DNA from: Phycisphaerales bacterium | Lineage (GTDB): Bacteria; Planctomycetota; Phycisphaerae; Phycisphaerales; SM1A02 | Reading direction: 5' to 3' | Assembly: GCA_046350455.1 (NCBI GenBank) | Contig: JAXMAM010000001.1 | Location: 57,130-121,129 of the forward strand | Length of the DNA stretch: 64,000 nucleotides | Shown here: positions 37,268 to 54,288 of the stretch, one piece after another | Numbering within the stretch: position 1 is the first letter of the stretch | Layout of the letters: every line of letters begins with the position of its first letter | The notes under the pieces: generated by a model | What the model was told of the DNA's origin: nothing | Database searches by the model: none | What the model saw: only the letters and a program-made list of their open reading frames with translations | Program-made: the position numbers and the translations under genes

Positions 37268-37998
37268 CTAGCGGGTCGGCGGAGCAGGGCGGGCTGTGCC
37301 GCTGGTGGCTGCGGCGTCCGAGTCGTCCACCAGCCAGGCCTGGACAGCCACCAGCACAGTCTCGCCGCTGCCATCGAGCGCTGGCATGGTGAGCATGGCG
37401 GTCTGTCCCTTGGGCAGGATGAATGAGCGTTCCACAGTCGTGGTGCGGAGGATGGGTTCGCCCACAGGCAGCGAGGTGCCTGGGACCTCCTTTCGTCCCA
37501 CGCACTGATCCATGCGCACCACCAGACGCTTGATGCCGACCGCGCCATCAGCTGTGGGCGCGGCGGTCACTTCCATGTGCAGGCCTTCCTGGTAGGGATC
37601 ATCGTGCACCAGGCGCAGGTCCCGTTGCTTGCGGCTCCATGTGCTCCGGAAGCCACCTGGCGACCGATGTCCACCTGCGCTGCACTGTCGGCCGAGATGA
37701 ACAGTCGCGGCGCGGTGACCACGTGGCTGGCGAGGTCGTCCAGCCCCAGGCGCTTGCCGTCGTCCATCACGGCGATGTCCTGCGCGATGACCAGGGAGGG
37801 TGCAGCGTCGCCGGGGAGCGATTCGATCACGGCGCCCTCGGCCAGCAACTGCGAGTCTCGCAGCTGGTAGACGTGCGTCTGGATCAGGATGAACGACTCG
37901 CGTGTTCCAGCTGGGGCGGGCGTGGCGGCGGGTGCACCTGGCGGGGTGGCACCACCCTGCAGGAGCGTGGCGGCGGCGATGCATGCGGCGAGGATCAT
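37268..37998 (-). CDS. exported protein(s) downstream of the anti-sigma gene; two ORFs in different frames (possible frameshift near 37570)
   Basis: Signal peptide MILAACIAAATLLQGG. ORF 37567-37998 and ORF 37268-37576 (MEVTAAP...) overlap by 10 nt. Start coupled to the anti-sigma stop by ATGA at 37995-37998. Confidence 0.35.
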
Positions 37999-39025: not shown

Positions 39026-39528
39026 GAAATTGGTGCCTGGCACGGGTGTCCCTACTTTCGGGGGGGCGACCGATGGTGGCGCTGCTGGGGGCGTGGGAGG
39101 GGCTGCGAAGCGGCTGCCGAAGCAGCGCACGCCGCCGCCGATCCGCCGGCACGCGCCGCCGCCGATCGTCCATCTCTCGCAGCGGCCGCAGCGCGGGGCC
39201 GGGGGGCGCGGCGTAGCGGCGTTGAGCGGAGCGAGGCAGGCTGTGTGGGTTCCTGGGCTCGCGGGCCGTTCCACCTGCCAAGCGCACGCGAAGCCGAGGC
39301 GAAGGCGGAACCTGGTGGAGCCGAGCCGTCCGCGGCCGCGCCCCCCGGCCCGCGCGGAGGCCGCGGGCGAGGCACGCACGGGACGGCCCGCACGGAGGCC
39401 GCGACACGGGGCGCTCGCGGTTCAGCGCGCGGTCCGGCGCGGGATCCCCGCGCCCCGCAAAAACCCGGGACAGGAGTGCCAGGCACCAGTTTCAGAAAGT
39501 AGGGACACCCGTGCCAGGCACCAATTTC
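39026..39528 (+). mobile_element. MITE-like non-autonomous element, copy 1 (about 503 bp, about 35-75-bp terminal inverted repeats beginning GAAATTGGTGCCTGGCACGGGTGTCCCTACTTTC)
   Basis: The left end gaaattggtgcctggcacgggtgtccctactttcgg and the right end ccgaaagtagggacacccgtgccaggcaccaatttc are reverse complements. The internal GC-rich core is the reverse complement of the core of the copy at 56133-56749. It contains no credible CDS. Confidence 0.6.
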
Positions 39529-41051: not shown

Positions 41052-42368
41052 ATGCAGCAGGCCTTCCCATCTGTCCAGCAGGTGCGCTACGAGGGCCCTG
41101 CCACCACCAACCCGCTTGCGTTCCGCCACTATGACCCGAGCGCGCTGGTGGAAGGCAAGCCCATGCGCGACCACCTGCGCTTTGCTGCGTGCTACTGGCA
41201 CACCATGCGCAACGGGCTGGCGGATCCCTTCGGCGCGCCCACGGCGCTCATGCCATGGGACGATGGCAGCAGCTCGGTGGACAACGCGCTGCGCCGGGTG
41301 GACGTGTTTATCGAGTTCCTCACCAAGTGCCAGATTGACTGGTACTGCTTCCACGACCGCGACCTTGCCCCGGAAGGCGCCACGCTCCGCGAGAGCAACA
41401 CCACCCTGGACCGCGTGGTGCAGCACCTGGCTGCGCAGACCAAGGCCGCTGGAAAGCGCCTGCTGTGGGGAACTGCCTGCCTGTTTGCCCACCCGCGCTA
41501 CCTGGCTGGCGCTGGCACCAGCCCCAGCGTGCAGGTCTTTGCGCACGCTGCAGCGCAGGTGAAGAAGGCCATGGAAGTGACGCACCAGCTGGGCGGACAG
41601 GGGTACGTCTTCTGGGGCGGGCGCGAGGGCTACACCAGCCTGCTCACCAAGGACATGCCGCGAGACCTGCGCCACCTGGCCAGCCTGCTGCACATGGCCG
41701 CTGCGTGGAAGAAGGAGCTGGGCTTCAGCGGCCAGCTGTACATCGAGCCCAAGCCGCGCGAGCCCAGCGTGCATCAGTACGACTACGACGCCGCCACCGT
41801 GCTCTCCTTCCTGCGCGAGCACGGCCTGCTGGGCACGTACACGCTGAACATCGAGACCAACCACGCCACGCTGGCCGGCCATGAGATGGAGCATGAGCTG
41901 CGCGTGGCTGCAGCAGCCAACGCGCTGGGCAGCATTGACGCCAACATGGGCACGCCCCACTGCGACTGGGACACAGACCAGTTCCCCACCGACCTCTACC
42001 TGACCACGCGCGTCATGCTGGTGGTGCTGGGCATGGGCGGGTTCACCACAGGCGGCCTGAACTTTGACGCCAAGCGCCGCCGCGAAAGCTGGGAGCCAGA
42101 GGACCTCTTCCGCGCGCACATCGCTGGCATGGACGCCTTTGCCTGCGGGCTGAAGGCAGCGGCTGCCATCCGCGCAGATGGCCGCCTGGCCCAGGCGCTG
42201 CGCGACCGGTACGGCAGCTGGGACACGCCGCTGGGCCAGCGCATCGAGGCAGGCAGCGCCACCATGGCAGAGCTGGAAGCCATGGTGCTGGACGCCGCAG
42301 TGCCGCCACCTCCCAGCGGGCAGCAGGAGCGGCTGGAAGCGCTCTTCAACCAGTTCATCCAGGGGTGA
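41052..42368 (+). CDS. xylA: xylose isomerase
   Basis: [28 protein letters not shown]..., FHDRD, WGGREG and further conserved blocks. About 438 aa. Divergent from the antiporter, 28 nt apart. Confidence 0.85.
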
Positions 42369-42427
42369 GCGGGCGCAGGGGCGGGTCCCGCGCAGGCGGC
42401 CCACGCAGCGCCGCGGGGCCCGCAGGC

Positions 42428-43429
42428 CTACGGCGGCGGGATGTACGTGTACGTGCCGCCCGTGTCCTCTGCGATGCGCTTCAGCACTGGCTCTGCAGCC
42501 TGCGAGTAGAACGCGATGGTGTGGATGACCACCTTGTGGTCCCCGTTGTACTGGTCCAGCACGTTGTCCACGGGCGCGCCGTTGAACTCGCCGTCGGTCA
42601 TCAGGTAGATGGTGTCGGGCCGCGGCTCGCGCAGCGCGATGCGCAGGGCTTCGGTGGGGTCGGTGCCGCCGCCGCGCTCCTGGGCGCGCAGCCACTCGAT
42701 GGCAGCCTTCTTGTTGGCATCCGTGGCGGCCACCAGCGAGCCGGGCGGCATGGCCAGGGCTGTGTCGTCAAAGAACACAATCAGGAACGCGCCGTTGTTG
42801 GGCAGTTTCTCAATGGACCGGCGCAGCTCCAGCTTGGTGTGCACCAGCTTCTGGCCAGCCATGCTGCCAGAGAAGTCAATCACATAGACCACGCGGCGCG
42901 AATCCGTCCGCACGCCCATGAACTCTGTGCCGCCGCGGGTGCCAGAGGCGCCCTCCACGCCGTGGCTGTCGCCAGAGCCCACCACTGGCGGCGCAGCAGG
43001 TGGCGCCACGGGCTGCGGTTCCTCGTCTGGCAGCGTGAAGCCAAACTTGGGCGGCGTCTGCTCAGCAGGCGGTGCGTTGCTGGGCGGACCGCTGGCCACA
43101 GCGGGGGAGCCAGCCCCAGGGCCCACGCCACCCGTTGCGTCCATCACATCGTTGCCGCCGCTCCCTGCACCGGTGCCCTTTTCACCAGACCCGGGACCAT
43201 TGCCGTGCGTGCCAGTGCCAGTGCCTGTGCCGCCGCCAGCGCCACCAGTGCCATGCCCATAGCCCAGGCCACCTCCGCGCAGCTGGCCATCTGGCCGGGC
43301 TGCATCTGATCCCGCCAGCCAGGCAGCCACGCACAGCACCATGGCTGCCACAAAGGTGGCTGCGATGCCCACCACCGCGGTCAGCCGCTCGTGTGGTTCG
43401 CAGGTGGTGCCGGTATTGACGTGCTGCAT
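42428..43429 (-). CDS. membrane-anchored von Willebrand factor type A (vWA) domain protein
   Basis: N-terminal TM, Gly-rich linker, then VVYVIDFSGSMAGQKL (the MIDAS motif DxSxS) ...TDGEFN. Divergent from the operon, about 65 nt apart. Confidence 0.6.
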   Translation of the reverse strand: MQHVNTGTTCEPHERLTAVVGIAATFVAAMVLCVAAWLAGSDAARPDGQLRGGGLGYGHGTGGAGGGTGTGTGTHGNGPGSGEKGTGAGSGGNDVMDATGGVGPGAGSPAVASGPPSNAPPAEQTPPKFGFTLPDEEPQPVAPPAAPPVVGSGDSHGVEGASGTRGGTEFMGVRTDSRRVVYVIDFSGSMAGQKLVHTKLELRRSIEKLPNNGAFLIVFFDDTALAMPPGSLVAATDANKKAAIEWLRAQERGGGTDPTEALRIALREPRPDTIYLMTDGEFNGAPVDNVLDQYNGDHKVVIHTIAFYSQAAEPVLKRIAEDTGGTYTYIPPP

Positions 43430-43494
43430 GGCGTGCAGGCGGAAAGTTCGCAGGTTCGCTGTGAATCTGGTCAGGGACGCCCGGAAAGCCGCCT

Positions 43495-44981
43495 TTGACT
43501 AGCGTATACGGAAGGGAACACGCCCTCTCCCACAACATTCACGAGGGAATCTTGACCCGCACGCTCAAGTCTTCCTGCACCTGCCCCCATTGCTGGCACC
43601 GTTTCCGGCCCGACGAGGTCATGTGGATCGCCGCCCACCCCGAACTGGTGGGCGACAACCTGCTGTCCGCAGAAGACCCGGTGCGCTTCCTGCCCAGCCG
43701 GTTTACGCCCGATGGGCACGCGCTGGACCCAGGTGGCCAGCCCACCCGCCGCCTGGCCTGCCCGCATTGCCATCTGGAGGTGCCGCAGCTGGTGCTGGAG
43801 CGCCCCATGGTGTTCATGTCCATCGCGGGCAGCCCCTCCAGCGGCAAGAGCTACTTCCTGGCCAGCGCCATGTGGCAGATGCGCCAGGATCTGGCCCGCT
43901 TCTTCAGCGTGGCCTTCACCGACACCGACCCCGCCATGAACCGGATGATCGCCCACAACGAGGCGCGCCTGTTCCTGAACGAGGACGCCAACGCGCTGGT
44001 GGCCATCGAGAAGACCGAGATGGAAGGCGCGCAGTACAACTCGGTGCAGTTCGACCCGGGCGCTGCCACGCTCCTGGCGCATCCGTTCATCTTCACCGTG
44101 CGGCCTGGGCGCGACCATGTGAACGGACACGGCGCTGGGCGGCTGACCACGCTGCTGACCCTGTACGACAACGCAGGCGAGCACTTCATGCCGGGCGCAG
44201 ACACCACGCGCGCGCCAGGCACCAAGCACCTGGCCAAGTCGCAGGTGCTGATGTTTGTGTTCGACCCCACGCAGGACGTGCGCTTCCGCCAGCGGCTGCA
44301 GGCTGTCTCCAGCGACCCGCAGCTGGCGGCAGGGCGCCGCACCGTGCGCCAGGACCAGCTGCTGGTGGAGATGGCGCGCCGCATCCGCATGCATGCAGGC
44401 CTGTCGCCCACCGCGCGCATCAAGCGTCCGCTCTTCCTCCTCCTCAGCAAGAGCGACATCTGGAAGGACCTGCTGCGCGATTCCAGCAGCCAGCCGCTGG
44501 ACGTGATCACCCCGCCCTACACGCGCGAGCGCGTGGGCCTGGGCAAGATGGACATCCGCCGCGTGGATGCAGCCAGCGACGCAGTGCGCGCGCTCCTCAC
44601 GCAGCTGGCGCCAGAGATCGTCACCGCCGCAGAGGACGCCTTTGAACGCGTCATCTACGTGCCTGTGAGCGCCACCGGCACTTCGCCCGTGCTCGATCCG
44701 GCCAGCGGCCTCCTGAAGGTGGCGGTGTCCAAGATCGCGCCAGCGTGGTGCGCATGCCGTTCATCTACTCGCTGGCGCGCTGGTCCAAGCACATGATGGC
44801 CACCAACAAGAGCGAGCCGCCGGGGTCGTTCTATGAGGAGGATGAAGGCACGCCAGAGACGCCGCCACCCGGCCACCCAGATGATGCTGGCGATGCTGGC
44901 GAGGCAGATGCGTCCGACGCAGCAGCGCGCGACGCTGGCCCGCCGCTCACACCCGTGGAGGGCCACGTGGATGGCGCATGA
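43495..44981 (+). CDS. zinc-ribbon + P-loop GTPase (G1 GSPSSGKS, G3 DNAG, G4 SKSD, G5 SAT); probable frameshift near 44735-44750 (upstream frame stops at 44796, downstream frame continues to 44981)
   Basis: CTCPHCWHRF...CPHCH, then MVFMSIAGSPSSGKSYF, TLYDNAGE, LLLSKSDIW, YVPVSATG. A TTG start at 43495 or 43553 (the latter preceded by GAGGGA). A second frame with high GC3 runs 44716-44981 and overlaps the next gene's start. Confidence 0.5.
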
Positions 44982-45471
44982 GCTGGTGTACACCTCGGCT
45001 GCGCGCGGTCTGCGCGATGGCACCAGCGGCTTCTGCACGGTGGCCATGACGCGTGGGCTTCCGCTCACCTTGGTGCCGCGGCTGGAGACGCTGGGCGGGT
45101 ATCGCCCTGGACCAGCTGGCGATGGGCCAGTCGCGCTCTCCCGCGGCCGGGAGAAAGCGGCAGCGTGCTGGGTCTGCTCTTCTACGCGCTGGGTGGGACC
45201 CGCAGCGCCGGACCACACGCAGCGCAGCAACAAGATCGCCACTACCTGGTGCTGGACGAAGAACCGCATCGATGGCCCAGCATGGCTGCTGGTGCTGCTG
45301 CGCTGCTGCGGCCTGGCGCGGACCGCCGGCGTGGTGCTGGCCGAGCAGCCTGCGGCGCTCCCCACTGCGCCTGCCACTGGGCCAGCGCCCCGTCAGGCGG
45401 GGGCGCTACGCGCGTGCAGGCGACGCTGGCTGCAGGGGAAGCTGGCTTCCAGCGCTCGGTGCTGGCGATGA
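44968..45471 (+). CDS. small protein of unknown function (operon gene B)
   Basis: ATG within ATGGCGCATGA overlapping the upstream stop. GC3 favours this frame over most of its length. An ambiguous 45100-45190 stretch leaves the frame uncertain. Confidence 0.3.
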   Translation, partial: WMAHELVYTSAARGLRDGTSGFCTVAMTRGLPLTLVPRLETLGGYRPGPAGDGPVALSRGREKAAACWVCSSTRWVGPAAPDHTQRSNKIATTWCWTKNRIDGPAWLLVLLRCCGLARTAGVVLAEQPAALPTAPATGPAPRQAGALRACRRRWLQGKLASSARCWR

Positions 45472-46346
45472 GCAAGCCAGCGCATGTGATCTACCCCGCT
45501 GGCATGGATCCCATGCCGCTCATCCTGGAGGCGCAGCAGCTGCTTCCTGCCTGGGCGCGCTGGCGGGCCACCTTCAGCACCTACTTCCTGCAGCCCGTGG
45601 CGGGTGCGCCGTGCCTGTGGCGCTTCTGCCTGGATGGCACGCCTGCCGCAGATGCCGCGCGCGCCTCCAAGGGCGTGGTGATTGACCTGACCAGGCAGCT
45701 GGGTGAAGCACCCGATGGCCGCTATGTGCGCGCGGCGCGCTCGGGCTCCCTGGAGGGCGAGGCTCCCGCAAGCGCGCAGGCTGGAGCCGCCGCGCCCCGG
45801 GGCTCGCGGAGCGGCGGTGCTGCGTTTGACGAGGAAGAGCCACAGGGCGGCTTCGCAGAAGGGCCGAACGCTGGCAGGTTGATGGACGAGCACGGCGAGC
45901 CGATCGGATTGGCGCCGCTGGAGTCAGCCGCCTCCAGCCGCTCCAGGCGCTTGAAGTCCAGCACCGATCAGGGCAGCGGGCCCACCTTCCGGCTGAGCCC
46001 CGCTGTCATTGGCGCGATTGCTGGCGCTGGCACGCTGGCGCTGGTGGTGGTGGTGGCCGTGCTGTTCTCGCGCGGAAGCGGGCAGACGCCGCAGCAGCCG
46101 GATGAGGCGGAACTGTCGGGCCAGGCGCAGCCATCAGGCCAGGCAGCGCGTCAGGGCAAGGCGCCGCCAAAGGGCCTGCCGTGGCCTCCCAAGGAGCCGG
46201 GGCAACGGCAGCAGGTGGTGGTGCAGGCCCCGAGCCAGCGCCTGTGGAGCCGCAACCTGTTGGCACGCAACCTGTCCAAACACAGTCTGTCCAGCCACAG
46301 CCAGTCGAGCCACAGCCGGACAAGCCATCATCAAGCGAGCCATTGA
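45468..46346 (+). CDS. membrane protein with one TM helix and Pro/Gln-rich linker (operon gene C; probably continuous with 46181-47500 through a frame change)
   Basis: The ATGA overlap with the gene B stop is weaker evidence because that boundary is itself low-confidence. TM FRLSPAVIGAIAGAGTLALVVVVAVLF. GC3 is high until about 46200. The C-terminal SHSQSSHSRTSHHQASH tail looks out of frame. Confidence 0.4.
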   Translation: MSKPAHVIYPAGMDPMPLILEAQQLLPAWARWRATFSTYFLQPVAGAPCLWRFCLDGTPAADAARASKGVVIDLTRQLGEAPDGRYVRAARSGSLEGEAPASAQAGAAAPRGSRSGGAAFDEEEPQGGFAEGPNAGRLMDEHGEPIGLAPLESAASSRSRRLKSSTDQGSGPTFRLSPAVIGAIAGAGTLALVVVVAVLFSRGSGQTPQQPDEAELSGQAQPSGQAARQGKAPPKGLPWPPKEPGQRQQVVVQAPSQRLWSRNLLARNLSKHSLSSHSQSSHSRTSHHQASH

Positions 46347-47500
46347 CGGGCAACGCGCAGCCAGCGGCACCCACGCAGCCAGCGCAGCAGCCCACGCAGC
46401 CCACAGAGCCCACGCAGCCAGCGCAGCAGCCCACGCAGCCCACCGCGCCTGCGCAGCCAGCGCTGGTGCCAGCTCCAGCGCCGGACCGCCCTTCGCGGCA
46501 GGTGGTCATGCGCCTGGTGGAGAACGCGGACACGCTGTTTGCCAGCGTGCAGCTCAACCAGCTCTGGGGCATCACCGGTGCGCGGTTCGCGCCTCCGCCG
46601 CTCCTGCAGCAGCAGGGCGTGGTGGCAGAGGACAACCAGCTGCGCATGCCAGGCGTGCATCCTTCGGCGGTGGTGGAGCTGAAGGATGGCGGCATCCGCA
46701 TCAGCTTCCCTGTGCGCGGCAACGGGCTTGAGGCGCTGGCGTCGGTGATCCGCATGCGCACCAGCGCCAAGCCAACCGACTACGCCCGCGCAGTGCTGCG
46801 CCGTGTGCCGCTGCTCCTGACCGACGCCAACGGCGTGGTGGTGGCCACTGCGCGGGTGGAGGCAGAGCCGCGCGTGGAGCTCCGCCGCAACGCGCAGCAG
46901 GCGCAGCTGCCGCTGACCGTGCGCGAACTGGCCATCCGCGCCGCCGTGGTCCACGACACCCCGCAGGGGCGCGAGGAGCTGGACTCGCGCGAGATCATGC
47001 CCGGACAGTCGCTGCCGGTGAAGGGCCGCCACGGCGACCTGCTGGTGACCTTTGAGAACGCCTACTCCCTGGCCGTGACGCCAGAGTCTGCGTCCGCTGC
47101 CGCGGCAGAGCAGGCCCGGCTTGCAGACGAGATGCAGAAGATCAGCGCCCGCCTTGGCGCGGTGGCGGTCCTGCAGCGCAAGCTGAAGGGCGCGAGCAGC
47201 GTGACCGACACGGACGTGGCGCGCGCCATCACCGAAGTGCAGAACGCGCTGAACGACGACGAGAAGGAGCACACCAAGGATGCCAAGGGCAAGGCGCAGC
47301 CGCTGACGGACACAGAGACGCTCCAGCGCGTGCTGCCGCGCTTTGAGGCGCGCTGCAAGCTGGAGGCGGAGACCACGCGCACAGCGCTCCTGGAGGCGCA
47401 GAAGCGCTCCCGCACCACCCCGGACGACAAGCTGCGCGTGGAGTTCTACGGCACGGATGGCATGCTCCTGGGCGTGGTCCTCCCGGAAGGAAAGTCCTGA
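46181..47500 (+). CDS. Pro/Gln-rich linker (PVEPQPV.. / QPTQPTEPTQPAQQ repeats) plus about 330-aa C-terminal domain (operon gene D or 3' part of gene C)
   Basis: High GC3 from about 46210 to 47500. Stop overlaps the next start (TGATG at 47500). Confidence 0.45.
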   Translation: MASQGAGATAAGGGAGPEPAPVEPQPVGTQPVQTQSVQPQPVEPQPDKPSSSEPLTGNAQPAAPTQPAQQPTQPTEPTQPAQQPTQPTAPAQPALVPAPAPDRPSRQVVMRLVENADTLFASVQLNQLWGITGARFAPPPLLQQQGVVAEDNQLRMPGVHPSAVVELKDGGIRISFPVRGNGLEALASVIRMRTSAKPTDYARAVLRRVPLLLTDANGVVVATARVEAEPRVELRRNAQQAQLPLTVRELAIRAAVVHDTPQGREELDSREIMPGQSLPVKGRHGDLLVTFENAYSLAVTPESASAAAAEQARLADEMQKISARLGAVAVLQRKLKGASSVTDTDVARAITEVQNALNDDEKEHTKDAKGKAQPLTDTETLQRVLPRFEARCKLEAETTRTALLEAQKRSRTTPDDKLRVEFYGTDGMLLGVVLPEGKS

Positions 47501-48606
47501 TGCTGCACCTGACCACCTTGCTCTGCGTGCTGCTGCTCACGCCGCCACCGGTGCCGGGCGGCGCGCCCTTCAAGCCGCCGCTTGCACCGCGCAATCCGCC
47601 CGGGACGCGGCCCAACACGCCGCCCATCGGCCCGGGTGGCAAGCAGCCGCCCGCCACTCCCACCACGCCTTCGCAGCCCAAGGCGCCAGGTCCCACCAAG
47701 CCAGCGGACACCCAGTCTTCGCAGCCCGCCGAGGAGGCCAAGCCGCCAGCGGCCACCGTGGCGGACACGGATCTGGTGCTGCTGGACACCAAGCTGCTGG
47801 TGCCCAAGTTGGACGCCATGCACGACGTGCAGCCGCTCAGCGGCGTGATTGGGCGATGCCCATCCTCGGTGGTGTCGGCGGTGCCAGCGCTGCCAGATCA
47901 GAGCGGGGTGCTGACGTGGCAGACAGATCCTGACCAGGTGAGGCTGATGGCTCGCAACGCAGCGGGGCAGAGCAGCGTGCTGGGTGTGCTGCGCTGGAAG
48001 GGCGCCTCGCTGGAGTGGTCGTGGTCTCGCTGCAGCCAGTCTTCGTTCACGCAGGCGGTGGCCGACGCAGAGCGTCTCCTGCGCTGGATGACCATCCGGA
48101 TCACGCTGGAGGGCGGCAAGCAGAAGCTGGGCACTGCAGCAGCGCAGCGCGTGGTGCGCACGCTGCCTGGCTTTGGTGAGTCGGCCATCATGCAGCTTCC
48201 GCCCGTGCGTGGCCTGGTAGTGGTGCCAGAGGCATCCGCCGTGTGGACGGTTACGCCGCCAGGTGGTGGCCAGACCATCCACCTGGAGAGCCCTGCGGGC
48301 GGTCTGGACATCCGGGTGGACACGCAGCAGCGCCGGCTGGTGGCGGACTTCTCCGCAGCTGGCGGCAGCGTGACCGTGGCTGAGCTCAAGCAGACCATCG
48401 CAGACCGCACCAAGGAGCTGCAGCGCGCCACGCCAGACGAGAAGCTGCTGATCGAGGCGGAGATCCAGAAGCTGAAGAACGAATTGGCCGCGGCAGAGGC
48501 CGAGGCCCACAAGCGCGCCCCGTGGTCGCCGCTGCCTGTGCTGCGCATGCAGGACGAGGTGGGCCGCGTGGTGGCCGTGCTGGAACTGCAAGTGAAGGGA
48601 TCATGA
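47500..48606 (+). CDS. N-terminally anchored protein with TonB-like Pro-rich spacer and about 250-aa C-terminal domain (operon gene E)
   Basis: MLHLTTLLCVLLLT anchor, PPPVPGGAPFKPPLAPRNPPGTRPNTPPIGPGGKQPPATPTTPSQPKAPGPTKP, and a coiled coil at the C-terminus. Confidence 0.5.
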   Translation: MLHLTTLLCVLLLTPPPVPGGAPFKPPLAPRNPPGTRPNTPPIGPGGKQPPATPTTPSQPKAPGPTKPADTQSSQPAEEAKPPAATVADTDLVLLDTKLLVPKLDAMHDVQPLSGVIGRCPSSVVSAVPALPDQSGVLTWQTDPDQVRLMARNAAGQSSVLGVLRWKGASLEWSWSRCSQSSFTQAVADAERLLRWMTIRITLEGGKQKLGTAAAQRVVRTLPGFGESAIMQLPPVRGLVVVPEASAVWTVTPPGGGQTIHLESPAGGLDIRVDTQQRRLVADFSAAGGSVTVAELKQTIADRTKELQRATPDEKLLIEAEIQKLKNELAAAEAEAHKRAPWSPLPVLRMQDEVGRVVAVLELQVKGS

Positions 48607-51512
48607 ACAGCGTCACCCGTGAAATGTTCGACGCCGTGCGCGATGCACTGGCGGGCCGCGAGATGGACGAAGCCCAGCGCCGCGACCTGGCGCAGCGCGT
48701 GAGCGAGGCCGGCATGGCGTTCCGCCGCCGCGTGGATCGCGCCGTGCGCTATACGCGCGATGGTCTGCGCTTGGAGGCCGCTGCGGAGGCGGAGGCAGAT
48801 CCCTCCATCTTTGAGGTGGCGCAGGCGCTGGACAGCCCCGACCTGCACAAGTGGCGCGCAGCGTGCCAGCGTGCGCACCTGCCAGCGCCGGACGCCCCGG
48901 ATCCAGCCGCGCTCGGCGAGATCGAGGAGGCCATCGCCCAGCTGCGTCCGCTGCGCAAGTACATGGCCCGCATGCGCACGCTGGTGCTGAGCGACGCGCC
49001 GCCGTGGGACCGCCTTCTGGTGCTGCGCAGCCTGCGTGCGCACGACCCGCACAACCACGCATGGAAGGAGGACCAGGCTGCGCTGGAGCCAAAGGCCGCA
49101 GAGTGGCTGGCGGAGCGCTGCGAGAAGGCAGTGCAGGCAGGGCACCTGAACACCGCTGCGCGCATGCTGGAGCATCTGGAGGATGGCGGCTGGCGCTCGC
49201 TGGACGTCAGCCGCCCTGTTGGCCAGCTGCGCACTGCGCTGCACGCCGCCGTGGTGGCGGAGTGCGTGCGCAAGGCGGCCCCCGTGGTGGAGCGGCTGGA
49301 GGCGGAGTGGGCCGCGGAGGACGCGCCTGCCGTGCGCGCCACGCTGGCTGAATGGCATGAGCTGAACGCCCGCGCGGTGGAGCACGACGGCCAGATGGAG
49401 GACGCGCTCTTGGCCCGCGTGGCCCGCGTGGAGGAGTGGCTGGACGAACGCACGCAGCTGGCCGAGGCGCAGCGCGACCACCGTGACCGCGCGGCCGCGC
49501 TGCAGCGCATCCTGGACGCGCAGGTGGCGCCGCTGCAGGAGATCCGCGCCGCCCTGAAGGCCAGCGAGGACACCAGCGAGGGCTGCCCAGACGACCTGCG
49601 CCGCCGCACGCTGGACCGCATCGACCAGCTGGAGCGCAAGCAGCGCGCACGGCGCGCCGCCGTGGCGGGTGCTGGTCTGCTGGTGCTGGCTGCAGCGGTG
49701 ACCGGCGTGTGGCTGGGGGTGAAGTACGTCACCCACAACGCAAGCGTGTCCAACATCGCGGCGTCCATCCAGAATGCAGTGGACGCTGGGCGGCTTGAGG
49801 ATGCGGAGCGCATCCTGAAGGAGGCGCAGGCGGACCCGGCTGTGGCCGGCGACGAGCGCATCGGCATCGCTGGCGCAGCGCTGGCCCGGGCGCAGCTGGC
49901 GCGCACGCAGGCGGTGACCAACTTTGCGGCCCTCATGGCGGAGGCCGGAGATCCGGAAAGCGCTGCCGCGCACCCAGAAGCTGTGGAGGAGGCCAAGGAG
50001 CTGGCGCGCACGCCAGAGCAGCAGGCAGCGGTGGAGGAGTGGGTGCGCAAGCGCCGCCGCGCAGAAGCGCAGCGTGCCGCCGAGCGCACGCGCGACCTTT
50101 CGCAGCGCATTGCAGAGCTGGCCAAGGAGGTCAGCGCGGTGGATCCAAGCACCGCCGAGGCGCCCAGCACGCTCACTGCGCTGGAGACCAAGCTGCAGGC
50201 CCTGGAGCGGAGCGCGGCAGACCAGCCGGAACTTCGCCAGCAGCTTGACAACGTGCGTGCGCTGGTAGTGGCGCAGCGGTCCTCTGCGCAGAGCGCTGCG
50301 GCTGGTTCAGAGCGGCAGAGCGCACTTCAGGCGCTGGCCGCGCAGTCCACTGAACCGCTGGCGCTGGCTGGAGCCATCAAGGCCTTTGCTGACCGCTATC
50401 CCGGCACGCCAGAGGCCGTGGCGCTGGCGCAGGCCGCTGTGGCTGCGCCGCAGTGGAACGCCGTGGCGCAGTGGAACGAAGTCGTGGGCACGCGGCCGTG
50501 GGGGCGCGCGGCGCAGCTCTCCAACGAAGAGCGCGACACCATGCGCGACGCGCTCAAGGCGTACGTGGACGCGTATCCGGCGTCGCCCTTTGCGGCTCTG
50601 GCCAGGCAGATGATGGCCATGCTCTCCAACCCGGAGAGCTGGCGCGGCTGGGCCAGCGGCAAGCTGGACACGCTGCCTGCCTTCACCTACTACGTGGTGG
50701 ATCTCATTGATGGCTCGCGGCTGTACACCACCCAGGACCCAGCGCGCATCAACCTGCAGTCGCGGGCCAATCTGCCGCAGTACAAGGTGATTCCAGTGCT
50801 GCAGAAGGATGATCCGGCGGGCGGCACGGTGCTGATGGACGTGGACACCGCGCGCATCAAGAAGGCTGGGCCCTCCCCGCAGATGCTGCTGGCTGGCCAG
50901 CTGCGCCAGGTGGTGGCGGATCCAGAGCCTCAGGGCGACTGGGCCAACGGCATGACCGCTGCGCTGGCCGTGCTGCAGCGCGTGCGCGACGCACAGGACG
51001 TGGACGGCGCCTTTGCCGCACAGCTGGCGCGCGGCGTGCTGGAGTCGCTGGACGCCGAGGCGCCTGCCGAACTCCGCCCCGCGCTGCAGAGCGCGGCCAA
51101 GCGCATCGCGCGCGAGCGCCCAGAGGACGTGGCGTGGGTGGCGGGCTCGCAGCCCGCACGGGCACGCAGCGCCGAGCTGCGCGCGCTGCTCAAGCAGGTG
51201 CTCACGGTGGAGGCGTGGCGCAAGACGCTTGCGGAGGCGCCCGCAGCCGTGGCTGGCGCCATGATGCGGCCAGTGCCGGTGGGCATGCTGATGGGGCTGG
51301 AGAGCCGTGTGCTCACCACGCCGCCGGGCACCAGCGCGCCAGCGGGCGCCTCGCTGCTGGCGCTGAAGGTGGGCGTGGGCACTGTGCCATCGGAGCTGGT
51401 GCGCATCGGCCAGGTGGATGGCGCTGGCGCGGTCACGCTTGATCAGGCGGCAAGCGCCTTCCCCATGGGCACCATGGTCTTTGCCCTCCCTTCCAAGGGG
51501 GCAGGCCAGTGA
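48603..51512 (+). CDS. 996-aa bitopic alpha-helical/coiled-coil protein (about 390-aa cytoplasmic, one TM, about 580-aa periplasmic; TolA-like architecture) (operon gene F)
   Basis: ATGA overlap with gene E stop at 48603-48606. TM RRAAVAGAGLLVLAAAVTGVWLGV around residue 390. Ala/Glu/Arg/Gln-rich heptad-like segments. Strong GC3. Confidence 0.55.
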   Translation: MNSVTREMFDAVRDALAGREMDEAQRRDLAQRVSEAGMAFRRRVDRAVRYTRDGLRLEAAAEAEADPSIFEVAQALDSPDLHKWRAACQRAHLPAPDAPDPAALGEIEEAIAQLRPLRKYMARMRTLVLSDAPPWDRLLVLRSLRAHDPHNHAWKEDQAALEPKAAEWLAERCEKAVQAGHLNTAARMLEHLEDGGWRSLDVSRPVGQLRTALHAAVVAECVRKAAPVVERLEAEWAAEDAPAVRATLAEWHELNARAVEHDGQMEDALLARVARVEEWLDERTQLAEAQRDHRDRAAALQRILDAQVAPLQEIRAALKASEDTSEGCPDDLRRRTLDRIDQLERKQRARRAAVAGAGLLVLAAAVTGVWLGVKYVTHNASVSNIAASIQNAVDAGRLEDAERILKEAQADPAVAGDERIGIAGAALARAQLARTQAVTNFAALMAEAGDPESAAAHPEAVEEAKELARTPEQQAAVEEWVRKRRRAEAQRAAERTRDLSQRIAELAKEVSAVDPSTAEAPSTLTALETKLQALERSAADQPELRQQLDNVRALVVAQRSSAQSAAAGSERQSALQALAAQSTEPLALAGAIKAFADRYPGTPEAVALAQAAVAAPQWNAVAQWNEVVGTRPWGRAAQLSNEERDTMRDALKAYVDAYPASPFAALARQMMAMLSNPESWRGWASGKLDTLPAFTYYVVDLIDGSRLYTTQDPARINLQSRANLPQYKVIPVLQKDDPAGGTVLMDVDTARIKKAGPSPQMLLAGQLRQVVADPEPQGDWANGMTAALAVLQRVRDAQDVDGAFAAQLARGVLESLDAEAPAELRPALQSAAKRIARERPEDVAWVAGSQPARARSAELRALLKQVLTVEAWRKTLAEAPAAVAGAMMRPVPVGMLMGLESRVLTTPPGTSAPAGASLLALKVGVGTVPSELVRIGQVDGAGAVTLDQAASAFPMGTMVFALPSKGAGQ

Positions 51513-52543
51513 GCGAGGGCTGGCATGTCCGGCAGGCAGGCCGCCAGAGCGGGCCGTTTGACCTGGAGCGGCTGCGCACCATGGCGCAGCGTGGCGCGCT
51601 TACGCGGTTCCACCAGCTGAGTCGCGATGGCGAGGAGTGGATCTCTGCTGCCAAGGTGCGGGCCGTCTTCAACGAGGATGGGTCGGTGGCAACCGGCCCC
51701 ACAGACAGCGGGGCATCCTTCAGCAGCACCAGCGCCTTTGAGGCCTTTGCCAACATGCGCATGCCAGAGCTGCCGGCGCTGCCCACAGCGCACTTCCGCG
51801 GCGGGGCGTTTGGCGCCACCGTGCTGTGGGCGCAGATCGCAGCGCTGGCGCTGGGCACGCTGGCCATGGTGGCTCCCACCAGCCGCGATGCTGATGGCGC
51901 GCTGCAGTGGTGGTTCCAGGAGGGGGCGCTGAGCATCTCGGTGCATGCCATGACGCTGCTGGCGTTCCTCACGTGGTGGGTGGTGGCGTTCCTGCCGCCC
52001 AACGCGTCGGTGGGCGCGTCGCTGGCTGCGGTGTCTGCGGTGCTGGCTGCAGGCAGCATGCTGCCGGCTGTGTCCTGGGCGCCGTGGGCGCTGCCAGCTG
52101 CCGCGGTCCTGCCGCTGGCGGCCATGCTGGTTGCCTTCGGCACAGAGGGCTCCAAGGCCGTGGGCGCGGTGGCCATCACGCTGTGCATCGAGGCCGGCCT
52201 GGCCCTGGTGGTGGCGGGCCTCCTGCTGGCATTCAACTTCAGCGGCTGGGGCCTGGCGGCCGTGCTGGTGCAGCTGGCTGGAACCGTGGCGCTGATCATC
52301 GGCGCTGTCCGCACCAAGAGCGGGTTGTCGCACGCGTTTGCGCTCACCGTGGGCGGCGCTGCGGCCATGGCCGTCACCATGTTCCTGGCGAGCGCTGCAG
52401 CCCTGGCTGGTGAACAGCCTGCGCATGGAGCGGCTGGAGCAACGTCCGCTGCGCTGTGCGTGTGCCTCTCCGTGCTAGCGTGGAGCGCGTCGCACCAGGC
52501 GCTGGGCGGTCCGCTGATCATCAAGTCAACCACAGAGTCATGA
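51509..52543 (+). CDS. DUF4339 (GYF-like) N-terminal domain fused to about 6 TM helices (operon gene G)
   Basis: GTGA overlap with gene F stop. WHVRQAGRQSGPFDLERLRTMAQRGALTRFHQLSRDGEEWISAAKV matches the DUF4339 pattern (W...G...GP.....L......G.....T.VW......W). Hydrophobic helices follow. Confidence 0.55.
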   Translation: MSEGWHVRQAGRQSGPFDLERLRTMAQRGALTRFHQLSRDGEEWISAAKVRAVFNEDGSVATGPTDSGASFSSTSAFEAFANMRMPELPALPTAHFRGGAFGATVLWAQIAALALGTLAMVAPTSRDADGALQWWFQEGALSISVHAMTLLAFLTWWVVAFLPPNASVGASLAAVSAVLAAGSMLPAVSWAPWALPAAAVLPLAAMLVAFGTEGSKAVGAVAITLCIEAGLALVVAGLLLAFNFSGWGLAAVLVQLAGTVALIIGAVRTKSGLSHAFALTVGGAAAMAVTMFLASAAALAGEQPAHGAAGATSAALCVCLSVLAWSASHQALGGPLIIKSTTES

Positions 52544-53439
52544 GCGCACAGACACCCACCACCGCAGATCCTTCGTCGCACAAGCAGCGCGCAGAGGCGC
52601 CCAGCAGCCAGCACCGCCTGGACGCCCGCAAGGGCGACCTGGAGTGCATGGTGGGCCTGCCATCTGGGCGGTACACCTCAGCCAGCGCCACGCTGTGGCT
52701 GGCTGGGGCGGCGGCGCTCACGGCGGCGTGCGGCGGGCTGCTGCTCCTGCTGGCGCCGCAGGGCTACGTGCTGCACATGCTCAACCGGTGCTGGACCAAC
52801 TGGGCGGTGGTGCTGCTCACGTGGTGGAGCCTGTGCATCCTGATCAACAAGTGGATCAAGACCAGCATCCAGATGAAGGCAGTGCGCATTGACACGCTGG
52901 TGCCGCGCCGCGGCGACTTTGTGCTGAGCCCCGGCACTGCAGGCGACGTGCTGCGCCACATGCGCGCCATCGCGGAGCGGCCCAAGGACTTCCTGCTGTT
53001 CCGGCGCATTGACATGGCGCTTTCCAACCTGGGCAACATCGGTGAGGTGCGCGACGTGGGCGCTGTGCTGGAGGGCCAGGCAGACTCGGACGCCAGCCAG
53101 GTGGACAGCAGCTACACCGTGCTGCGCGCGGTCATCTGGACCATCCCCATCCTGGGGTTCATCGGCACGGTGATCGGTCTGTCGGACGCCATCGGCAGCT
53201 TTACGGAAGTGCTCACGCAGCCAGGTGCGGACGTGGCGGCCATCAAGACCAAGCTGGGACCGGTGGTCACAGGCCTGGCCACGGCGTTTGAGACCACGCT
53301 GGTGGCGCTGCAGGCAGCGGTCATCGTGCAGCTGATCTCCACGTGGGTGTTCAAGCGCGAGGAGGACATGCTGGACGCCATGAGCGAATACACCACCGAG
53401 CACATCCTGAGCCGGCTGAAGCTGACCGACTGGAAGTGA
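52540..53439 (+). CDS. MotA/TolQ/ExbB-family proton channel subunit (operon gene H)
   Basis: ATGA overlap with gene G stop. Four TM helices. C-terminal signature ILGFIGTVIGL...LGPVVTGLATAFETTLVALQAAVIVQL. Confidence 0.65.
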   Translation: MSAQTPTTADPSSHKQRAEAPSSQHRLDARKGDLECMVGLPSGRYTSASATLWLAGAAALTAACGGLLLLLAPQGYVLHMLNRCWTNWAVVLLTWWSLCILINKWIKTSIQMKAVRIDTLVPRRGDFVLSPGTAGDVLRHMRAIAERPKDFLLFRRIDMALSNLGNIGEVRDVGAVLEGQADSDASQVDSSYTVLRAVIWTIPILGFIGTVIGLSDAIGSFTEVLTQPGADVAAIKTKLGPVVTGLATAFETTLVALQAAVIVQLISTWVFKREEDMLDAMSEYTTEHILSRLKLTDWK

Positions 53440-53457
53440 CGCCGGAGCGCCTGCACC

Positions 53458-54288
53458 ATGGGACGCCGCAAGAAGAAGCAGCAGGAGTCGCTCACGCTGT
53501 TCTCCTTTCAGGACATCATGGCATGCCTGACGGGCGTGCTCATCCTGATCTCGCTGCTGCTTGCACTGGACGGCCTGAGCGACCGCATTGACGACGCTGG
53601 CGCGCCTGGATCCGCCGCAGAGGCCGATGCCGCGCAGCGCGTTGAGCAGCTGGCAGCGGAGATCAAGACGCTGGAGGAGCAGGTGGACGTGCGCATGCGC
53701 GGCCTGCCTGTGACCGAGGACGAGGTGAAGGTGCTGGAGGCGCGCGCAGCCAGCATGCAGCGCGAACTGGATGAGGCCCAGCAGCGCGACCGCACGCTGG
53801 CGGCAGAGGTGGCGCGCCTGGAAGAGGAGGAGAAGGCGCTGATGGTGCGGCGCCAGGCTGCGGAGCGCACCCTGGTGGAGCAGGAGCTCCAGAAGCGGCG
53901 GCAGCGCGTGCAGTACCGCCCCGGCGGGCAGCAGGAGCGGACGCCGCTGTTCGTGGAGGTCTCGGCCAGTGGACTGCGCGTGGGCAAGCTGGACGCAGAG
54001 CGCACGCCAGTGATGCTGGCTGATCTGCCAGGCGCTGCGCCGCTGCCACCCAGGCCTGAAGAGGGGCTGGCCAAGGCGCTGAATCCGCTCGGGCCGGATG
54101 CGTACTACGTGCTGTTCGTGGTGCACCCGGATGGCATCAAGCGGTTCGAGGCGCTGCGCGCAGCGGTCTTCCGCAATGGCTACGAAGTGGGCTGGCAGCT
54201 GTGGGACGCAGCTGCGGGCGCGTTCCTGCAGCCAGCACCTGTGGTCACGCCCGCTGCGGCACCAGCAGGCGCGGGGGGTGGCTCATGA
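53458..54288 (+). CDS. TolR/ExbD/MotB-like subunit 1 with conserved TM Asp, long coiled coil and ExbD-like periplasmic domain (operon gene I)
   Basis: MGRRKKKQQESLTLFSFQDIMACLTGVLILISLLL (compare MotB YADFMTLLMAFFLLL). Coiled coil. ...YYVLFVVHPDGIKRFEALRAAVFRNGYEVGWQL. Confidence 0.55.
   Translation: MGRRKKKQQESLTLFSFQDIMACLTGVLILISLLLALDGLSDRIDDAGAPGSAAEADAAQRVEQLAAEIKTLEEQVDVRMRGLPVTEDEVKVLEARAASMQRELDEAQQRDRTLAAEVARLEEEEKALMVRRQAAERTLVEQELQKRRQRVQYRPGGQQERTPLFVEVSASGLRVGKLDAERTPVMLADLPGAAPLPPRPEEGLAKALNPLGPDAYYVLFVVHPDGIKRFEALRAAVFRNGYEVGWQLWDAAAGAFLQPAPVVTPAAAPAGAGGGS

What the first reader, a model, noticed from the sequence alone, without database searches (positions are those of the whole stretch)
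43495..44981. Operon-leading gene is a zinc-ribbon GTPase with all five G motifs, apparently split by a frameshift near 44735-44750
After two CxxC pairs (CTCPHCW ... CPHCH) come G1 GSPSSGKS, G3 (hh)DNAG, a variant G4 SKSD and G5 SAT, spread over about 300 aa with large insertions, so this is not a small Ras-like protein. The frame carrying these motifs stops at 44796. A second frame with high GC3 is open from 44716 to 44981 (…VVRMPFIYSLARWSKHMMATNK… with an acidic tail) and its stop overlaps the start of gene B (ATGGCGCATGA). A single-nt indel near ccagcgtggtgcgc would join the two into a protein of about 495 aa. The divergent upstream neighbour is a membrane-anchored vWA protein.
Basis: partly seen in the sequence, partly recalled or inferred. 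Interest (0 to 1): 0.65.

Follow-up and report, generated by a model that had tools for sequence, protein, structure and literature searches.

The report
Known conflict-system GTPase, broken by deletion
The gene is a zinc-ribbon GTPase of an already described bacterial conflict system (DO-GTPase2 with its GAP1-N2 partner), and the split is a one-base deletion found only in this assembly, so it is probably an assembly error or a very recent lesion and not a programmed frameshift.

Summary
A 414-codon frame (TTG 43552 to stop 44796) carries two CxxC knuckles, G1, G3, G4 and G5. A second frame (44757-44981) carries the rest of the protein.

The split is one missing G (GCAGTG to GCATG at 44754/5). 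There is no slippery site. Of 80 related genomes, 78 read through this point in one frame. Three conspecific assemblies, 99.1-99.6% identical, are intact and have an identical C-terminal tail. Both halves show housekeeping-level purifying selection.

The window is an NCBI Phycisphaerales MAG, where the product is annotated as a 391-aa hypothetical protein. The next gene, GAP1, is also broken: a 328-nt scrambled patch with 51 indel columns, plus another 1-nt deletion. An unrelated sulfotransferase gene 29 kb away is frameshifted too. All the GTPase/GAP1 lesions lie in a 1.85-kb segment that is otherwise about 99.6% identical to a conspecific contig.

Estimated likelihoods: consensus/assembly artefact about 0.55, real recent inactivation about 0.35, programmed frameshift below 0.03.

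The parts
42428..43429 (-). Divergently transcribed membrane-anchored vWA protein (333 aa). It is a conserved neighbour of the system.
   Evidence: Pfam VWA_3 at 53.8 bits. It lies in the same divergent position in 42 related loci and in L001, L002 and L083.
43552..44796 (+). DO-GTPase2 gene, 5' part as it reads in this assembly: TTG start, 401 authentic codons, then 13 out-of-frame codons (CRSSTRWRAGPST) and a premature stop.
   Evidence: Equals NCBI MFO0782135.1 when read from the internal ATG at 43621.
43576..43596 (+). First CxxC zinc knuckle (CTCPHCW).
   Evidence: C11/P12/H13/C14/W15 are at least 90% conserved in 62 homologues. It lies upstream of the ATG used in the public annotation.
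43759..43773 (+). Second CxxC zinc knuckle (CPHCH).
   Evidence: C70/P71/C73/H74 are invariant.
43828..43851 (+). G1 / Walker A, GSPSSGKS.
   Evidence: G93, G98 and K99 are invariant.
44008..44019 (+). Candidate G2 / switch I threonine (EKTE).
   Evidence: K154 and T155 are invariant. The assignment as G2 is an inference.
44167..44184 (+). G3 / Walker B, DNAG, followed by the family-specific glutamate (DNAGEH).
   Evidence: D206-E210 are invariant. The conserved Walker B glutamate is a stated hallmark of DO-GTPases.
44446..44457 (+). G4, SKSD (a variant of NKxD).
   Evidence: K300 and D302 are invariant.
44668..44676 (+). G5, SAT.
   Evidence: S373 is invariant, in the context VPVSAxG.
44754..44755 (+). 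Frameshift site: one G is missing (conspecifics GCAGTG, window GCATG).
   Evidence: Inserting G restores a 476-aa protein that is 99.1-99.6% identical to P0123-P0125.
44757..44981 (+). 3' part of the same gene in the other frame: the last conserved helix PFIYSLARW (44757-44783), an acidic disordered tail, and the stop at 44979-44981 that overlaps the start of gene B.
   Evidence: Helix 402-411 is predicted confidently and the tail has pLDDT below 50. The amino-acid sequence is identical to the conspecific tail.
44971..47500 (+). GAP1 gene (GAP1-N2 and GAP1-M domains, TM helix 46005-46076, PQ-rich linker, ectodomain). It reads in three frames in this assembly.
   Evidence: Pfam GAP1-N2 at 45.5 bits and GAP1-M at 46.6 bits, in different frames. 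Supported by tblastn and frameshift-aware alignment. The gene is intact, at 838-839 aa, in L001 and L083.
45141..45468 (+). Scrambled patch inside the GAP1-N2 domain. Blocks identical to conspecifics alternate with blocks full of small indels. The conserved hhvvL motif ends up out of frame.
   Evidence: 24 mismatches and 51 indel columns in 351 aligned columns against L083, compared with 0.3-0.4% divergence in the flanks. A family profile matches different frames in different blocks.
46231..46232 (+). Second isolated 1-nt deletion in GAP1 (GCCCC-GAG). The site is T or C in conspecifics.
47500..48606 (+). Gene C (368 aa), a paralogue of the GAP1 ectodomain. Intact.
   Evidence: A single tblastn match to the L001 orthologue at 86.6% identity, plus a 24% match to GAP1 residues 410-792.
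48603..51512 (+). Gene D (969 aa, one TM helix, helical). Intact. Its start overlaps the stop of gene C.
51509..52543 (+). Protein with a GYF domain and a polytopic TM region.
   Evidence: Pfam GYF_2 at 30.8 bits against a cut-off of 25.8. Hydrophobic segments. Matches the planctomycete GAP1-N2 partner described in PMC7159879.
52540..55091 (+). MotA/ExbB-like channel protein (52540-53439) followed by two single-pass TM/coiled-coil proteins (53458-54288 and 54285-55091).
   Evidence: Pfam MotA_ExbB at 38 bits. Weak ZorA/ZorB PADLOC matches. The MotA-like gene is found downstream in 29 related loci. Gene calls in L083.

Best explanation
Identity. The gene encodes the switch GTPase (DO-GTPase2 family, TRAFAC class) of a GAP1-N2-type GTPase-centric conflict system. 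The operon is tightly overlapped: GTPase, GAP1 (membrane-anchored), a GAP1-ectodomain paralogue, a 969-aa helical membrane protein, a GYF/TM-rich protein, a MotA/ExbB-like protein and two single-pass membrane proteins. A divergent vWA gene lies upstream.

Proposed mechanism. This is inferred from Kaur et al. 2020 and is not tested. GAP1 and its variable extracytoplasmic module sense an invader. The zinc-knuckle GTPase binds GTP and acts as a threshold switch through the GAP1-N2/M domains. The membrane components carry out the response.

The split. It is not a feature of the system. It is a single missing G at 44754/5 that is private to this MAG assembly. It removes the last conserved helix and the acidic tail, and it uncouples translation of GAP1 from the GTPase gene. 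The most likely cause is a consensus or assembly error in a strain-heterogeneous stretch of the contig. The same 1.85-kb stretch holds a scrambled 328-nt patch and a second 1-nt deletion in GAP1. The second possibility is a very recent real lesion.
For: Family membership:
- Pfam hits above their cut-offs: PF19993 at 28.1 against 27, PF20013 at 45.5, PF20014 at 46.6, and GYF_2 at 30.8 against 25.8.
- The motifs are invariant in 62 homologues.
- The paper's description matches: TRAFAC GTPase, Walker B glutamate, N-terminal zinc ribbons, GAP1-N2, planctomycetes, GYF plus a TM-rich partner.

The split is not a family feature:
- 78 of 80 GTDB loci read through the junction in one frame. The other two are L060, cut by a contig end, and L031, shifted at a different place.
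- L001 and L002 are intact.
- Conspecific P0123-P0125 are intact and 99.1-99.6% identical to the repaired protein.
- There is no XXXYYYZ heptamer and no homopolymer of 4 or more in 44640-44800.

The lesion is recent or artefactual:
- dN/dS against L001 is 0.076 before the shift and 0.125 after it. NhaP, vWA and XylA give 0.075-0.111.
- The 74 residues after the shift are identical to those of P0123 and P0124.

Evidence for a local sequence-quality problem:
- Against L083, the window has 0 indel columns in 8541 columns (46451-54991) and 3 in 3150 columns (41605-44753), but 51 in the 45141-45468 patch, whose flanks differ by only 0.3-0.4%.
- Mismatches against L083 almost vanish between 44647 and 46527, and every lesion lies inside that segment.
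- An unrelated TPR-sulfotransferase gene at about 15932 carries a complex indel (GCGCG to TTCT) relative to intact 488-aa homologues.
Against: - No reads are available, so artefact and real mutation cannot be separated.
- The isolated indels are concentrated in the two core genes of one conflict system, while C, D, GYF and MotA are clean. Real inactivation would also produce this.
- The nearest GTDB relative, L031, also has frameshifts in both genes at other positions.
- The PF19993 hit is only just above its cut-off and covers profile positions 88-173 of 226.
- No member of this family has been characterised experimentally in the literature searched, so the mechanism is inference.
Confidence: 0.55

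Rival explanations
1. The lesions are real. This strain has recently switched off the system through a 1-nt deletion in the GTPase gene, a scrambled GAP1-N2 domain and a 1-nt deletion in the GAP1 linker, while conspecific strains keep it intact. On this reading the locus shows an on/off polymorphism of a costly conflict system.
For: - All frame-breaking changes between 41.6 and 55 kb fall in the two core genes.
- Conflict systems are commonly lost or inactivated (general knowledge).
- L031, a different species, also has frameshifts in both genes while its NhaP and XylA neighbours each match in one piece.
- NCBI accepted the contig, and the truncated ORF is annotated.
Against: - dN/dS on both sides of the shift is as low as in housekeeping neighbours, and the residues after the shift are identical to those of P0123 and P0124. 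Any inactivation would therefore have to be extremely recent.
- Neutral decay cannot put 75 differences into 328 nt while the flanking 1146 nt carry 4.
- Blocks inside the patch are identical to conspecifics, which argues against import of a divergent allele.
- An unrelated gene elsewhere in the window has a similar odd indel.
Confidence: 0.35
2. A programmed -1 ribosomal frameshift, or transcriptional slippage, makes the full-length GTPase from the two frames.
For: The two frames overlap by about 150 nt (44646-44796), and the downstream frame keeps coding character and conservation.
Against: - There is no slippery heptamer and no homopolymer of 4 or more in the overlap.
- Homology places the switch at GCA|TG, which offers no tRNA re-pairing.
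- The two-frame arrangement is absent from 78 of 80 related loci and from all conspecific assemblies.
Confidence: 0.02
3. The sequence is correct and functional as it stands: a 414-aa GTPase lacking the last helix, plus an independent 78-aa acidic protein from the GTG at 44745.
For: Both ORFs exist. The G domain and all G motifs lie upstream of the break.
Against: - The lost segment contains the invariant P403 and the near-invariant V402, Y406 and W411, and forms a confidently predicted helix.
- No homologue among those inspected ends before this helix. Shorter entries are N-terminal truncations.
- The stop/start overlap with GAP1 is lost.
- GAP1 itself is unreadable.
Confidence: 0.03

Closest known systems
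DO-GTPase2 / GAP1-N2-type GTPase-centric conflict systems (Kaur, Burroughs, Iyer, Aravind 2020, eLife 9:e52696; Pfam PF19993, PF20013, PF20014)
   Same: - A TRAFAC GTPase with a Walker B glutamate and N-terminal zinc knuckles.
- A GAP1 gene immediately downstream with N2 and M domains and a C-terminal TM.
- vWA and GYF/TM-rich partners.
- A planctomycete host.

   Different: - This copy is frameshifted.
- There is one GTPase gene, not a paralogous pair.
- There are only two CxxC knuckles, enough for one zinc site, whereas the paper speaks of two ribbons.
- The conserved MotA/ExbB-like gene and the two single-pass genes downstream are not named in the paper: the term 'MotA' occurs 0 times.
YcjX stress GTPase (PDB 6nz4)
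   Different: Sequence identity is 15%. The profile built from 62 homologues finds no GTPase among PDB sequences beyond a marginal Der match at E 0.095. YcjX has no zinc knuckles and no GAP1 partner.
Rag, Rab and Arf small GTPases and translation-factor G domains
   Different: This protein is about 2.5 times larger, with an N-terminal zinc module, internal insertions and a C-terminal helix plus acidic tail.
Zorya ZorA/ZorB (a MotA/MotB-like stator in an anti-phage system)
   Same: A MotA/ExbB-family protein followed by single-pass membrane proteins, inside a conflict operon.
   Different: The PADLOC matches are weak (E 1.7e-5 for ZorA, 0.003 for ZorB). The window operon proteins scanned (C to ExbD2-like) gave no match to any other Zorya component. 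Pfam does not recognise the single-pass proteins as MotB/ExbD.
Genes with programmed frameshifts (dnaX, prfB, IS3 transposases)
   Same: Two overlapping coding frames that together encode one protein.
   Different: There is no slippery site, and relatives do not conserve the arrangement.

Membership tests
DO-GTPase2 (PF19993) of GAP1-N2 systems | Match to the family profile above Pfam's gathering score | tested here: met
   28.1 bits against a cut-off of 27, over profile positions 88-173 of 226, for the window ORF. This is borderline. PF19993 is precomputed for most close homologues.
DO-GTPase2 (PF19993) of GAP1-N2 systems | TRAFAC-class GTPase fold with Walker A, a DxxG Walker B followed by a conserved glutamate, and a [NT]KxD-like G4 | tested here: met
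DO-GTPase2 (PF19993) of GAP1-N2 systems | One or two N-terminal zinc ribbons | tested here: inconclusive
   Two conserved CxxC knuckles lie 55 residues apart. That gives four Cys, enough for one zinc site. The geometry in the model and the metal content were not examined.
DO-GTPase2 (PF19993) of GAP1-N2 systems | A GAP1 gene (N2 type) directly downstream | tested here: met
   GAP1-N2 at 45.5 bits and GAP1-M at 46.6 bits. The GAP1 start overlaps the GTPase stop. The same order is seen in 68 or more related loci.
DO-GTPase2 (PF19993) of GAP1-N2 systems | Two paralogous GTPase genes (the 'double' arrangement, present in 38% of systems) | tested here: not met
   tblastn with the orthologous GTPase found it only at 43552-44978 in the window, and none of the other operon genes gave a GTPase family hit. 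The paper does not require this feature.
DO-GTPase2 (PF19993) of GAP1-N2 systems | GTP binding and hydrolysis; a role in conflict or defence | not testable with these tools
   The literature search found no experimental work on the family.
Programmed ribosomal frameshift | A slippery sequence at the point where the frames join | tested here: not met
   No XXXYYYZ heptamer, no partial in-frame heptamer and no homopolymer of 4 or more in 44640-44800. The junction is GCA|TGC.
Programmed ribosomal frameshift | The two-frame arrangement is conserved in orthologues | tested here: not met
   78 of 80 GTDB loci, plus L001, L002, L083 and L084, read through in a single frame.
Pseudogene (real inactivation) | Relaxed selection after the lesion | tested here: not met
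   dN/dS is 0.076 before the shift and 0.125 after it, equal to the housekeeping neighbours. The tail is identical to that of conspecifics P0123 and P0124. This still allows a very recent lesion.
Pseudogene (real inactivation) | The lesion is supported by the underlying reads | not testable with these tools
   No reads are available. The window's own contig is not in the searchable contig collections.
Zorya-like ZorAB module | ZorA and ZorB profile matches, plus ZorC/D or another Zorya-specific partner | tested here: not met
   Only weak ZorA (E 1.7e-5) and ZorB (E 0.003) matches, and no other Zorya component.

The most novel reading that the evidence does not exclude
The lesions are genuine. 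A freshwater Phycisphaerales strain has only just silenced a DO-GTPase2/GAP1-N2 system that its conspecifics keep. The 328-nt patch of GAP1-N2 was scrambled by a localised, non-neutral process, or reflects several co-existing hypervariable GAP1-N2 alleles in the population. That would point to strong, ongoing conflict acting on the domain thought to couple sensing to the GTPase switch.
Probability: 0.25. Interest if true: 0.45.

Novelty: new member of a known kind. Interest (0 to 1): 0.2.

Why it matters
- It settles what the gene is, and shows that the intriguing frameshift is not biology conserved in the family.
- It corrects the public annotation. MFO0782135.1 (391 aa) lacks the first zinc knuckle at its N-terminus and ends in 13 out-of-frame residues. 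The neighbouring GAP1 gene is unreadable in this assembly.
- It flags a stretch of this MAG contig, and at least one other gene, as unreliable.
- The system itself has been described only computationally. The intact conspecific operon (L083) is a cleaner starting point for experiments. Its conserved MotA/ExbB-like module suggests a link to membrane energetics that the original description did not name.

Tried and rejected
- **Looking up the window's own contig.** Exact look-ups with gene C, vWA, XylA, NhaP and P0121 all returned nothing on record.
- **Scanning JGI metagenome contigs.** The junction pattern with or without the extra base gave 0 hits.
- **Sequence search of PDB** with the family profile gave only spurious DARPin/ankyrin matches and a marginal Der hit.
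- **PADLOC** found nothing for the GTPase, GAP1, C, D, GYF or vWA proteins.
- **Rfam** on the whole window gave no hit.
- **GYF and MotA-like ORFs as a split fusion gene.** Rejected. The relatives with the clearest gene boundaries (L009-L011, L023, L025, L027, L030) have two adjacent ORFs separated by a stop, and L083 has two gene calls.
- **The whole 46233-46450 region as scrambled.** Rejected. It is in-frame variation in the PQ repeats plus one clean 1-nt deletion at 46231.
- **The GAP1-N2 patch as an imported divergent allele or an inversion.** Import does not fit, because the blocks between the scrambles are identical to conspecifics. Reverse-complementing the L083 block by eye gave no match.
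- **A uniform random-error model.** It does not fit either: there are 0 indel columns in 8.5 kb downstream against 51 in 328 nt.
- **ExbD/MotB assignment of the two single-pass proteins.** Pfam does not support it, even at E up to 1.
Full report
**1. What is in the sequence**

The window has 67% G+C, so the third-codon-position signal is strong.
- The position%3=1 frame runs from 43495 to a stop at 44794-44796. Its GC3 is 0.80-1.00 up to about 44680.
- The position%3=0 frame then takes over (GC3 0.90 at 44740). It is open from 44646 to a stop at 44979-44981.
- That stop overlaps the ATG of the next gene at 44971.
- Homologues start at MTRxLK, which corresponds to the TTG at 43552. The authentic gene is therefore 43552-44981, and the repaired protein has 476 residues, not about 495.

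**2. What the gene is**

- Pfam places the ORF in DO-GTPase2 (PF19993, 28.1 bits against a cut-off of 27).
- Pfam places the next gene in GAP1-N2 (PF20013, 45.5 bits) and GAP1-M (PF20014, 46.6 bits). The upstream divergent gene is vWA.
- A search of 5.8 billion proteins gave 1287 homologues, mostly annotated PF19993 or unannotated.
- In a 62-sequence alignment reaching 42% identity, these are invariant or nearly so: both CxxC knuckles, GxxxxGK, K-T (candidate G2), DNAGE, KxD and the G5 serine.
- AlphaFold2 on the 94%-identical orthologue P0001, using that alignment, gave pLDDT 87.3 and pTM 0.85.

**3. It is already described**

Kaur et al. 2020 (PMC7159879) define the 'GTPase-centric systems'. 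Their description includes:
- a previously unrecognised TRAFAC family with a conserved glutamate in Walker B, and often 1-2 N-terminal zinc ribbons;
- a downstream GAP1 protein whose N domain comes in two types;
- for the GAP1-N2 type, occurrence in planctomycetes among others, GAP1 often fused to C-terminal TM segments, vWA partners, and in planctomycetes a partner with GYF domains fused to a TM-rich region.

The window matches point by point. It has DNAGE; GAP1 with a TM helix at 46005-46076; and a GYF_2 protein with many hydrophobic segments at 51509-52543.

The operon is tightly overlapped, with ATGA or GTGA junctions. It is conserved in relatives. Among 82 loci, many of them cut short by contig ends, vWA is present in 42, D in 38, GYF in 30 and the MotA-like gene in 29. 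The only other paper in the library that mentions these names does so once, and I found no experimental work.

**4. The frameshift in the GTPase gene**

- Homologues read ...KIAPAWCAVPFIYSLARWS... straight across the junction.
- At the DNA level, the 89%-identical syntenic contigs L001 and L002 have GCGGTG. The conspecific contigs L083 and L084 have GCAGTG. The window has GCATG. One G is missing at 44754/5, and the surrounding 60 nt are identical to the conspecifics.
- Inserting the G gives a protein 99.1-99.6% identical to P0123-P0125.
- Nothing suggests recoding. There is no XXXYYYZ heptamer and no run of four or more identical bases in 44640-44800.
- 78 of 80 species-representative loci read through in one frame. 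The exceptions are a contig end (L060) and L031, which is shifted about 145 codons earlier.
- As it stands, the ORF loses helix 402-411 (invariant P403; near-invariant V402, Y406, W411), which is confidently modelled. It also loses the acidic tail and the stop/start overlap with GAP1.
- No natural homologue that I inspected ends before that helix.

**5. Source of the window**

A cluster look-up showed that the truncated product, read from the internal ATG at 43621 to ...CRSSTRWRAGPST, is NCBI MFO0782135.1. It is named 'MAG: hypothetical protein U0636_00440 [Phycisphaerales bacterium]' and sits on a 227-kb contig. The same 90% cluster holds intact proteins from three Logan assemblies of other sequencing runs. 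The C-terminal 74 residues of P0123 and P0124 are identical to the window's second frame, and P0125 differs there at one residue.

**6. The next gene is broken too**

- The 838-aa GAP1 of L001 matches the window in three frames: 44971-45429, 45384-46232 and 46241-47494.
- Frameshift-aware alignment and a profile of 68 GAP1 N-termini show local frame excursions inside the N2 domain. The conserved hhvvL motif (HYLVL) lies out of frame.
- The table below gives the comparison with the conspecific contig L083.

| Window region | Divergence from L083 | Indel columns |
|---|---|---|
| 41605-44753 | 2.8% | 3 |
| 44757-45140 | 0.3% | 0 |
| 45141-45468 | 21.4% | 51 |
| 45469-46230 | 0.4% | 0 |
| 46231 | one missing base in a C-run | 1 |
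| 46233-46450 | 18.4%, mostly in-frame PQ-repeat variation | 16 |
| 46451-54991 | 2.5% | 0 |

- The site at 46231 is T in L083 and C in L084.
- Inside the patch, blocks of up to 49 nt that are virtually identical to L083 and L084 alternate with blocks full of small insertions and deletions.
- Mismatches against L083 almost disappear between 44647 and 46527 (four across the stretch), and every lesion lies inside that segment.

**7. Elsewhere in the window**

- A TPR-sulfotransferase gene on the minus strand is split. Sulfotransfer_3 profile positions 3-43 fall in one ORF and 121-216 in another.
- Its homologues are single 485-505-aa proteins.
- The window differs from two 93%-identical relatives by a complex change, GCGCG to TTCT, near 15932.
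- Housekeeping genes that I checked give full-length matches: asd, trpC, apaG and an AlkZ-like gene to their Pfam profiles, and NhaP and XylA to their L001 orthologues.

**8. Artefact or real?**

Selection analysis against L001 gives dN/dS 0.076 before the shift and 0.125 after it. For comparison, NhaP is 0.076, vWA 0.075 and XylA 0.111. The gene has therefore been under normal constraint in both halves, and the lesion is either an artefact or extremely recent.

The scrambled GAP1 patch cannot be neutral decay: it has 75 differences in 328 nt, against 4 in the flanking 1146 nt. It does not look like an imported divergent allele either, because the intervening blocks are identical to conspecifics.

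The explanation I favour is a consensus error where reads from more than one strain, or poorly polished long reads, were merged. This explains three things:
- the alternation of perfect and garbled blocks;
- the co-location of all lesions in a segment with a different similarity profile;
- the similar oddity in an unrelated accessory gene.

A real, very recent inactivation of the two core genes of a costly system remains plausible. It would also explain why the lesions are concentrated in those two genes, and why L031 has independent frameshifts in the same two genes. Without reads I put the probabilities at:
- artefact: about 0.55
- real: about 0.35
- programmed frameshifting: about 0.02
- functional as it stands: about 0.03

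**9. Mechanism**

This is inferred from Kaur et al. 2020 and from the anatomy found here; none of it is tested.
- GAP1 spans the membrane once. Its ectodomain has a secreted or periplasmic paralogue, gene C.
- Its cytoplasmic N2 and M domains are thought to contact the GTPase.
- The GTPase would act as a nucleotide-dependent switch or threshold.
- The outputs would be the membrane proteins downstream: D, the GYF/TM-rich protein, the MotA/ExbB-like protein and two single-pass coiled-coil proteins.

**10. Verdict**

However, the family is already known, and the frameshift is a private defect of this assembly, not a biological feature. Interest is low.

Noticed in passing
window 44971-47500 (patch 45141-45468; 46231): The GAP1 gene downstream of the finding is unreadable in this assembly. 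A 328-nt patch alternates blocks identical to conspecifics with blocks full of small indels (51 indel columns), and there is a separate 1-nt deletion in a C-run. It is intact at 838-839 aa in L001 and L083.
   Followed up: yes
window ~44647-46527: Apart from the lesions, this 1.85-kb segment is about 99.6% identical to conspecific contig L083, while the flanks differ by 2.5-2.8%. All three lesions in the GTPase and GAP1 genes lie inside it. This suggests a haplotype switch, either a chimeric consensus or a recent recombination.
   Followed up: partly
window 15437-16935 (- strand), lesion near 15932: An unrelated TPR-sulfotransferase gene is frameshifted by a complex change (GCGCG to TTCT) relative to intact 488-aa homologues (P0126, L085, L086).
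   Followed up: yes
window 43552-43620: The public annotation (MFO0782135.1, 391 aa) and the Logan gene calls (453 aa) start at the ATG at 43621. They therefore omit the conserved first zinc knuckle (CTCPHCW). The conserved start is the TTG at 43552.
   Followed up: partly
window 52540-55091: A MotA/ExbB-family protein (Pfam 38 bits) is followed by two single-pass TM/coiled-coil proteins, each with an Asp at the start of its TM. The MotA-like gene lies downstream of the GAP1-N2 operon in 29 related loci. The 2020 description does not name it. The matches to Zorya ZorA/ZorB are only weak.
   Followed up: partly
window 47500-48606 vs 46500-47497: Gene C (368 aa, hydrophobic N-terminus, P-rich linker) is a paralogue of the extracytoplasmic C-terminal half of GAP1 (24% identity over about 380 residues).
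   Followed up: partly
window 46356-46472: Three tandem 39-nt repeats encode a PQ-rich 13-residue unit in the GAP1 linker just outside the TM helix. The adjoining stretch at 46312-46352 and the repeats themselves (a 9-nt indel at 46438-46446) vary in frame relative to L083.
   Followed up: partly
window 39179-39366 (+) and 56281-56468 (-): A GC-rich element of about 190 nt, with roughly 35-nt terminal inverted repeats, occurs twice in inverted orientation (about 96% identical). It brackets the 17-kb block from NhaP to the end of the operon region. One copy is conserved in L001 and L002. The minus-strand fold has a z-score of -3.7. There is no Rfam hit.
   Followed up: partly
L031 8784 and 9902-10021: The closest GTDB representative (contig_50290, labelled Nitrospinota but syntenic with the Phycisphaerales loci) also has frameshifts in both the GTPase and GAP1 genes, at positions different from those in the window. 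Its NhaP and XylA genes are intact.
   Followed up: partly
window 1-24000 and 37268-37902: Much of the first 24 kb scores weakly for coding with a codon model trained on the window's long genes. A possible further frame switch at about 37652 (minus strand) was not resolved, because neither ORF has a Pfam hit.
   Followed up: no
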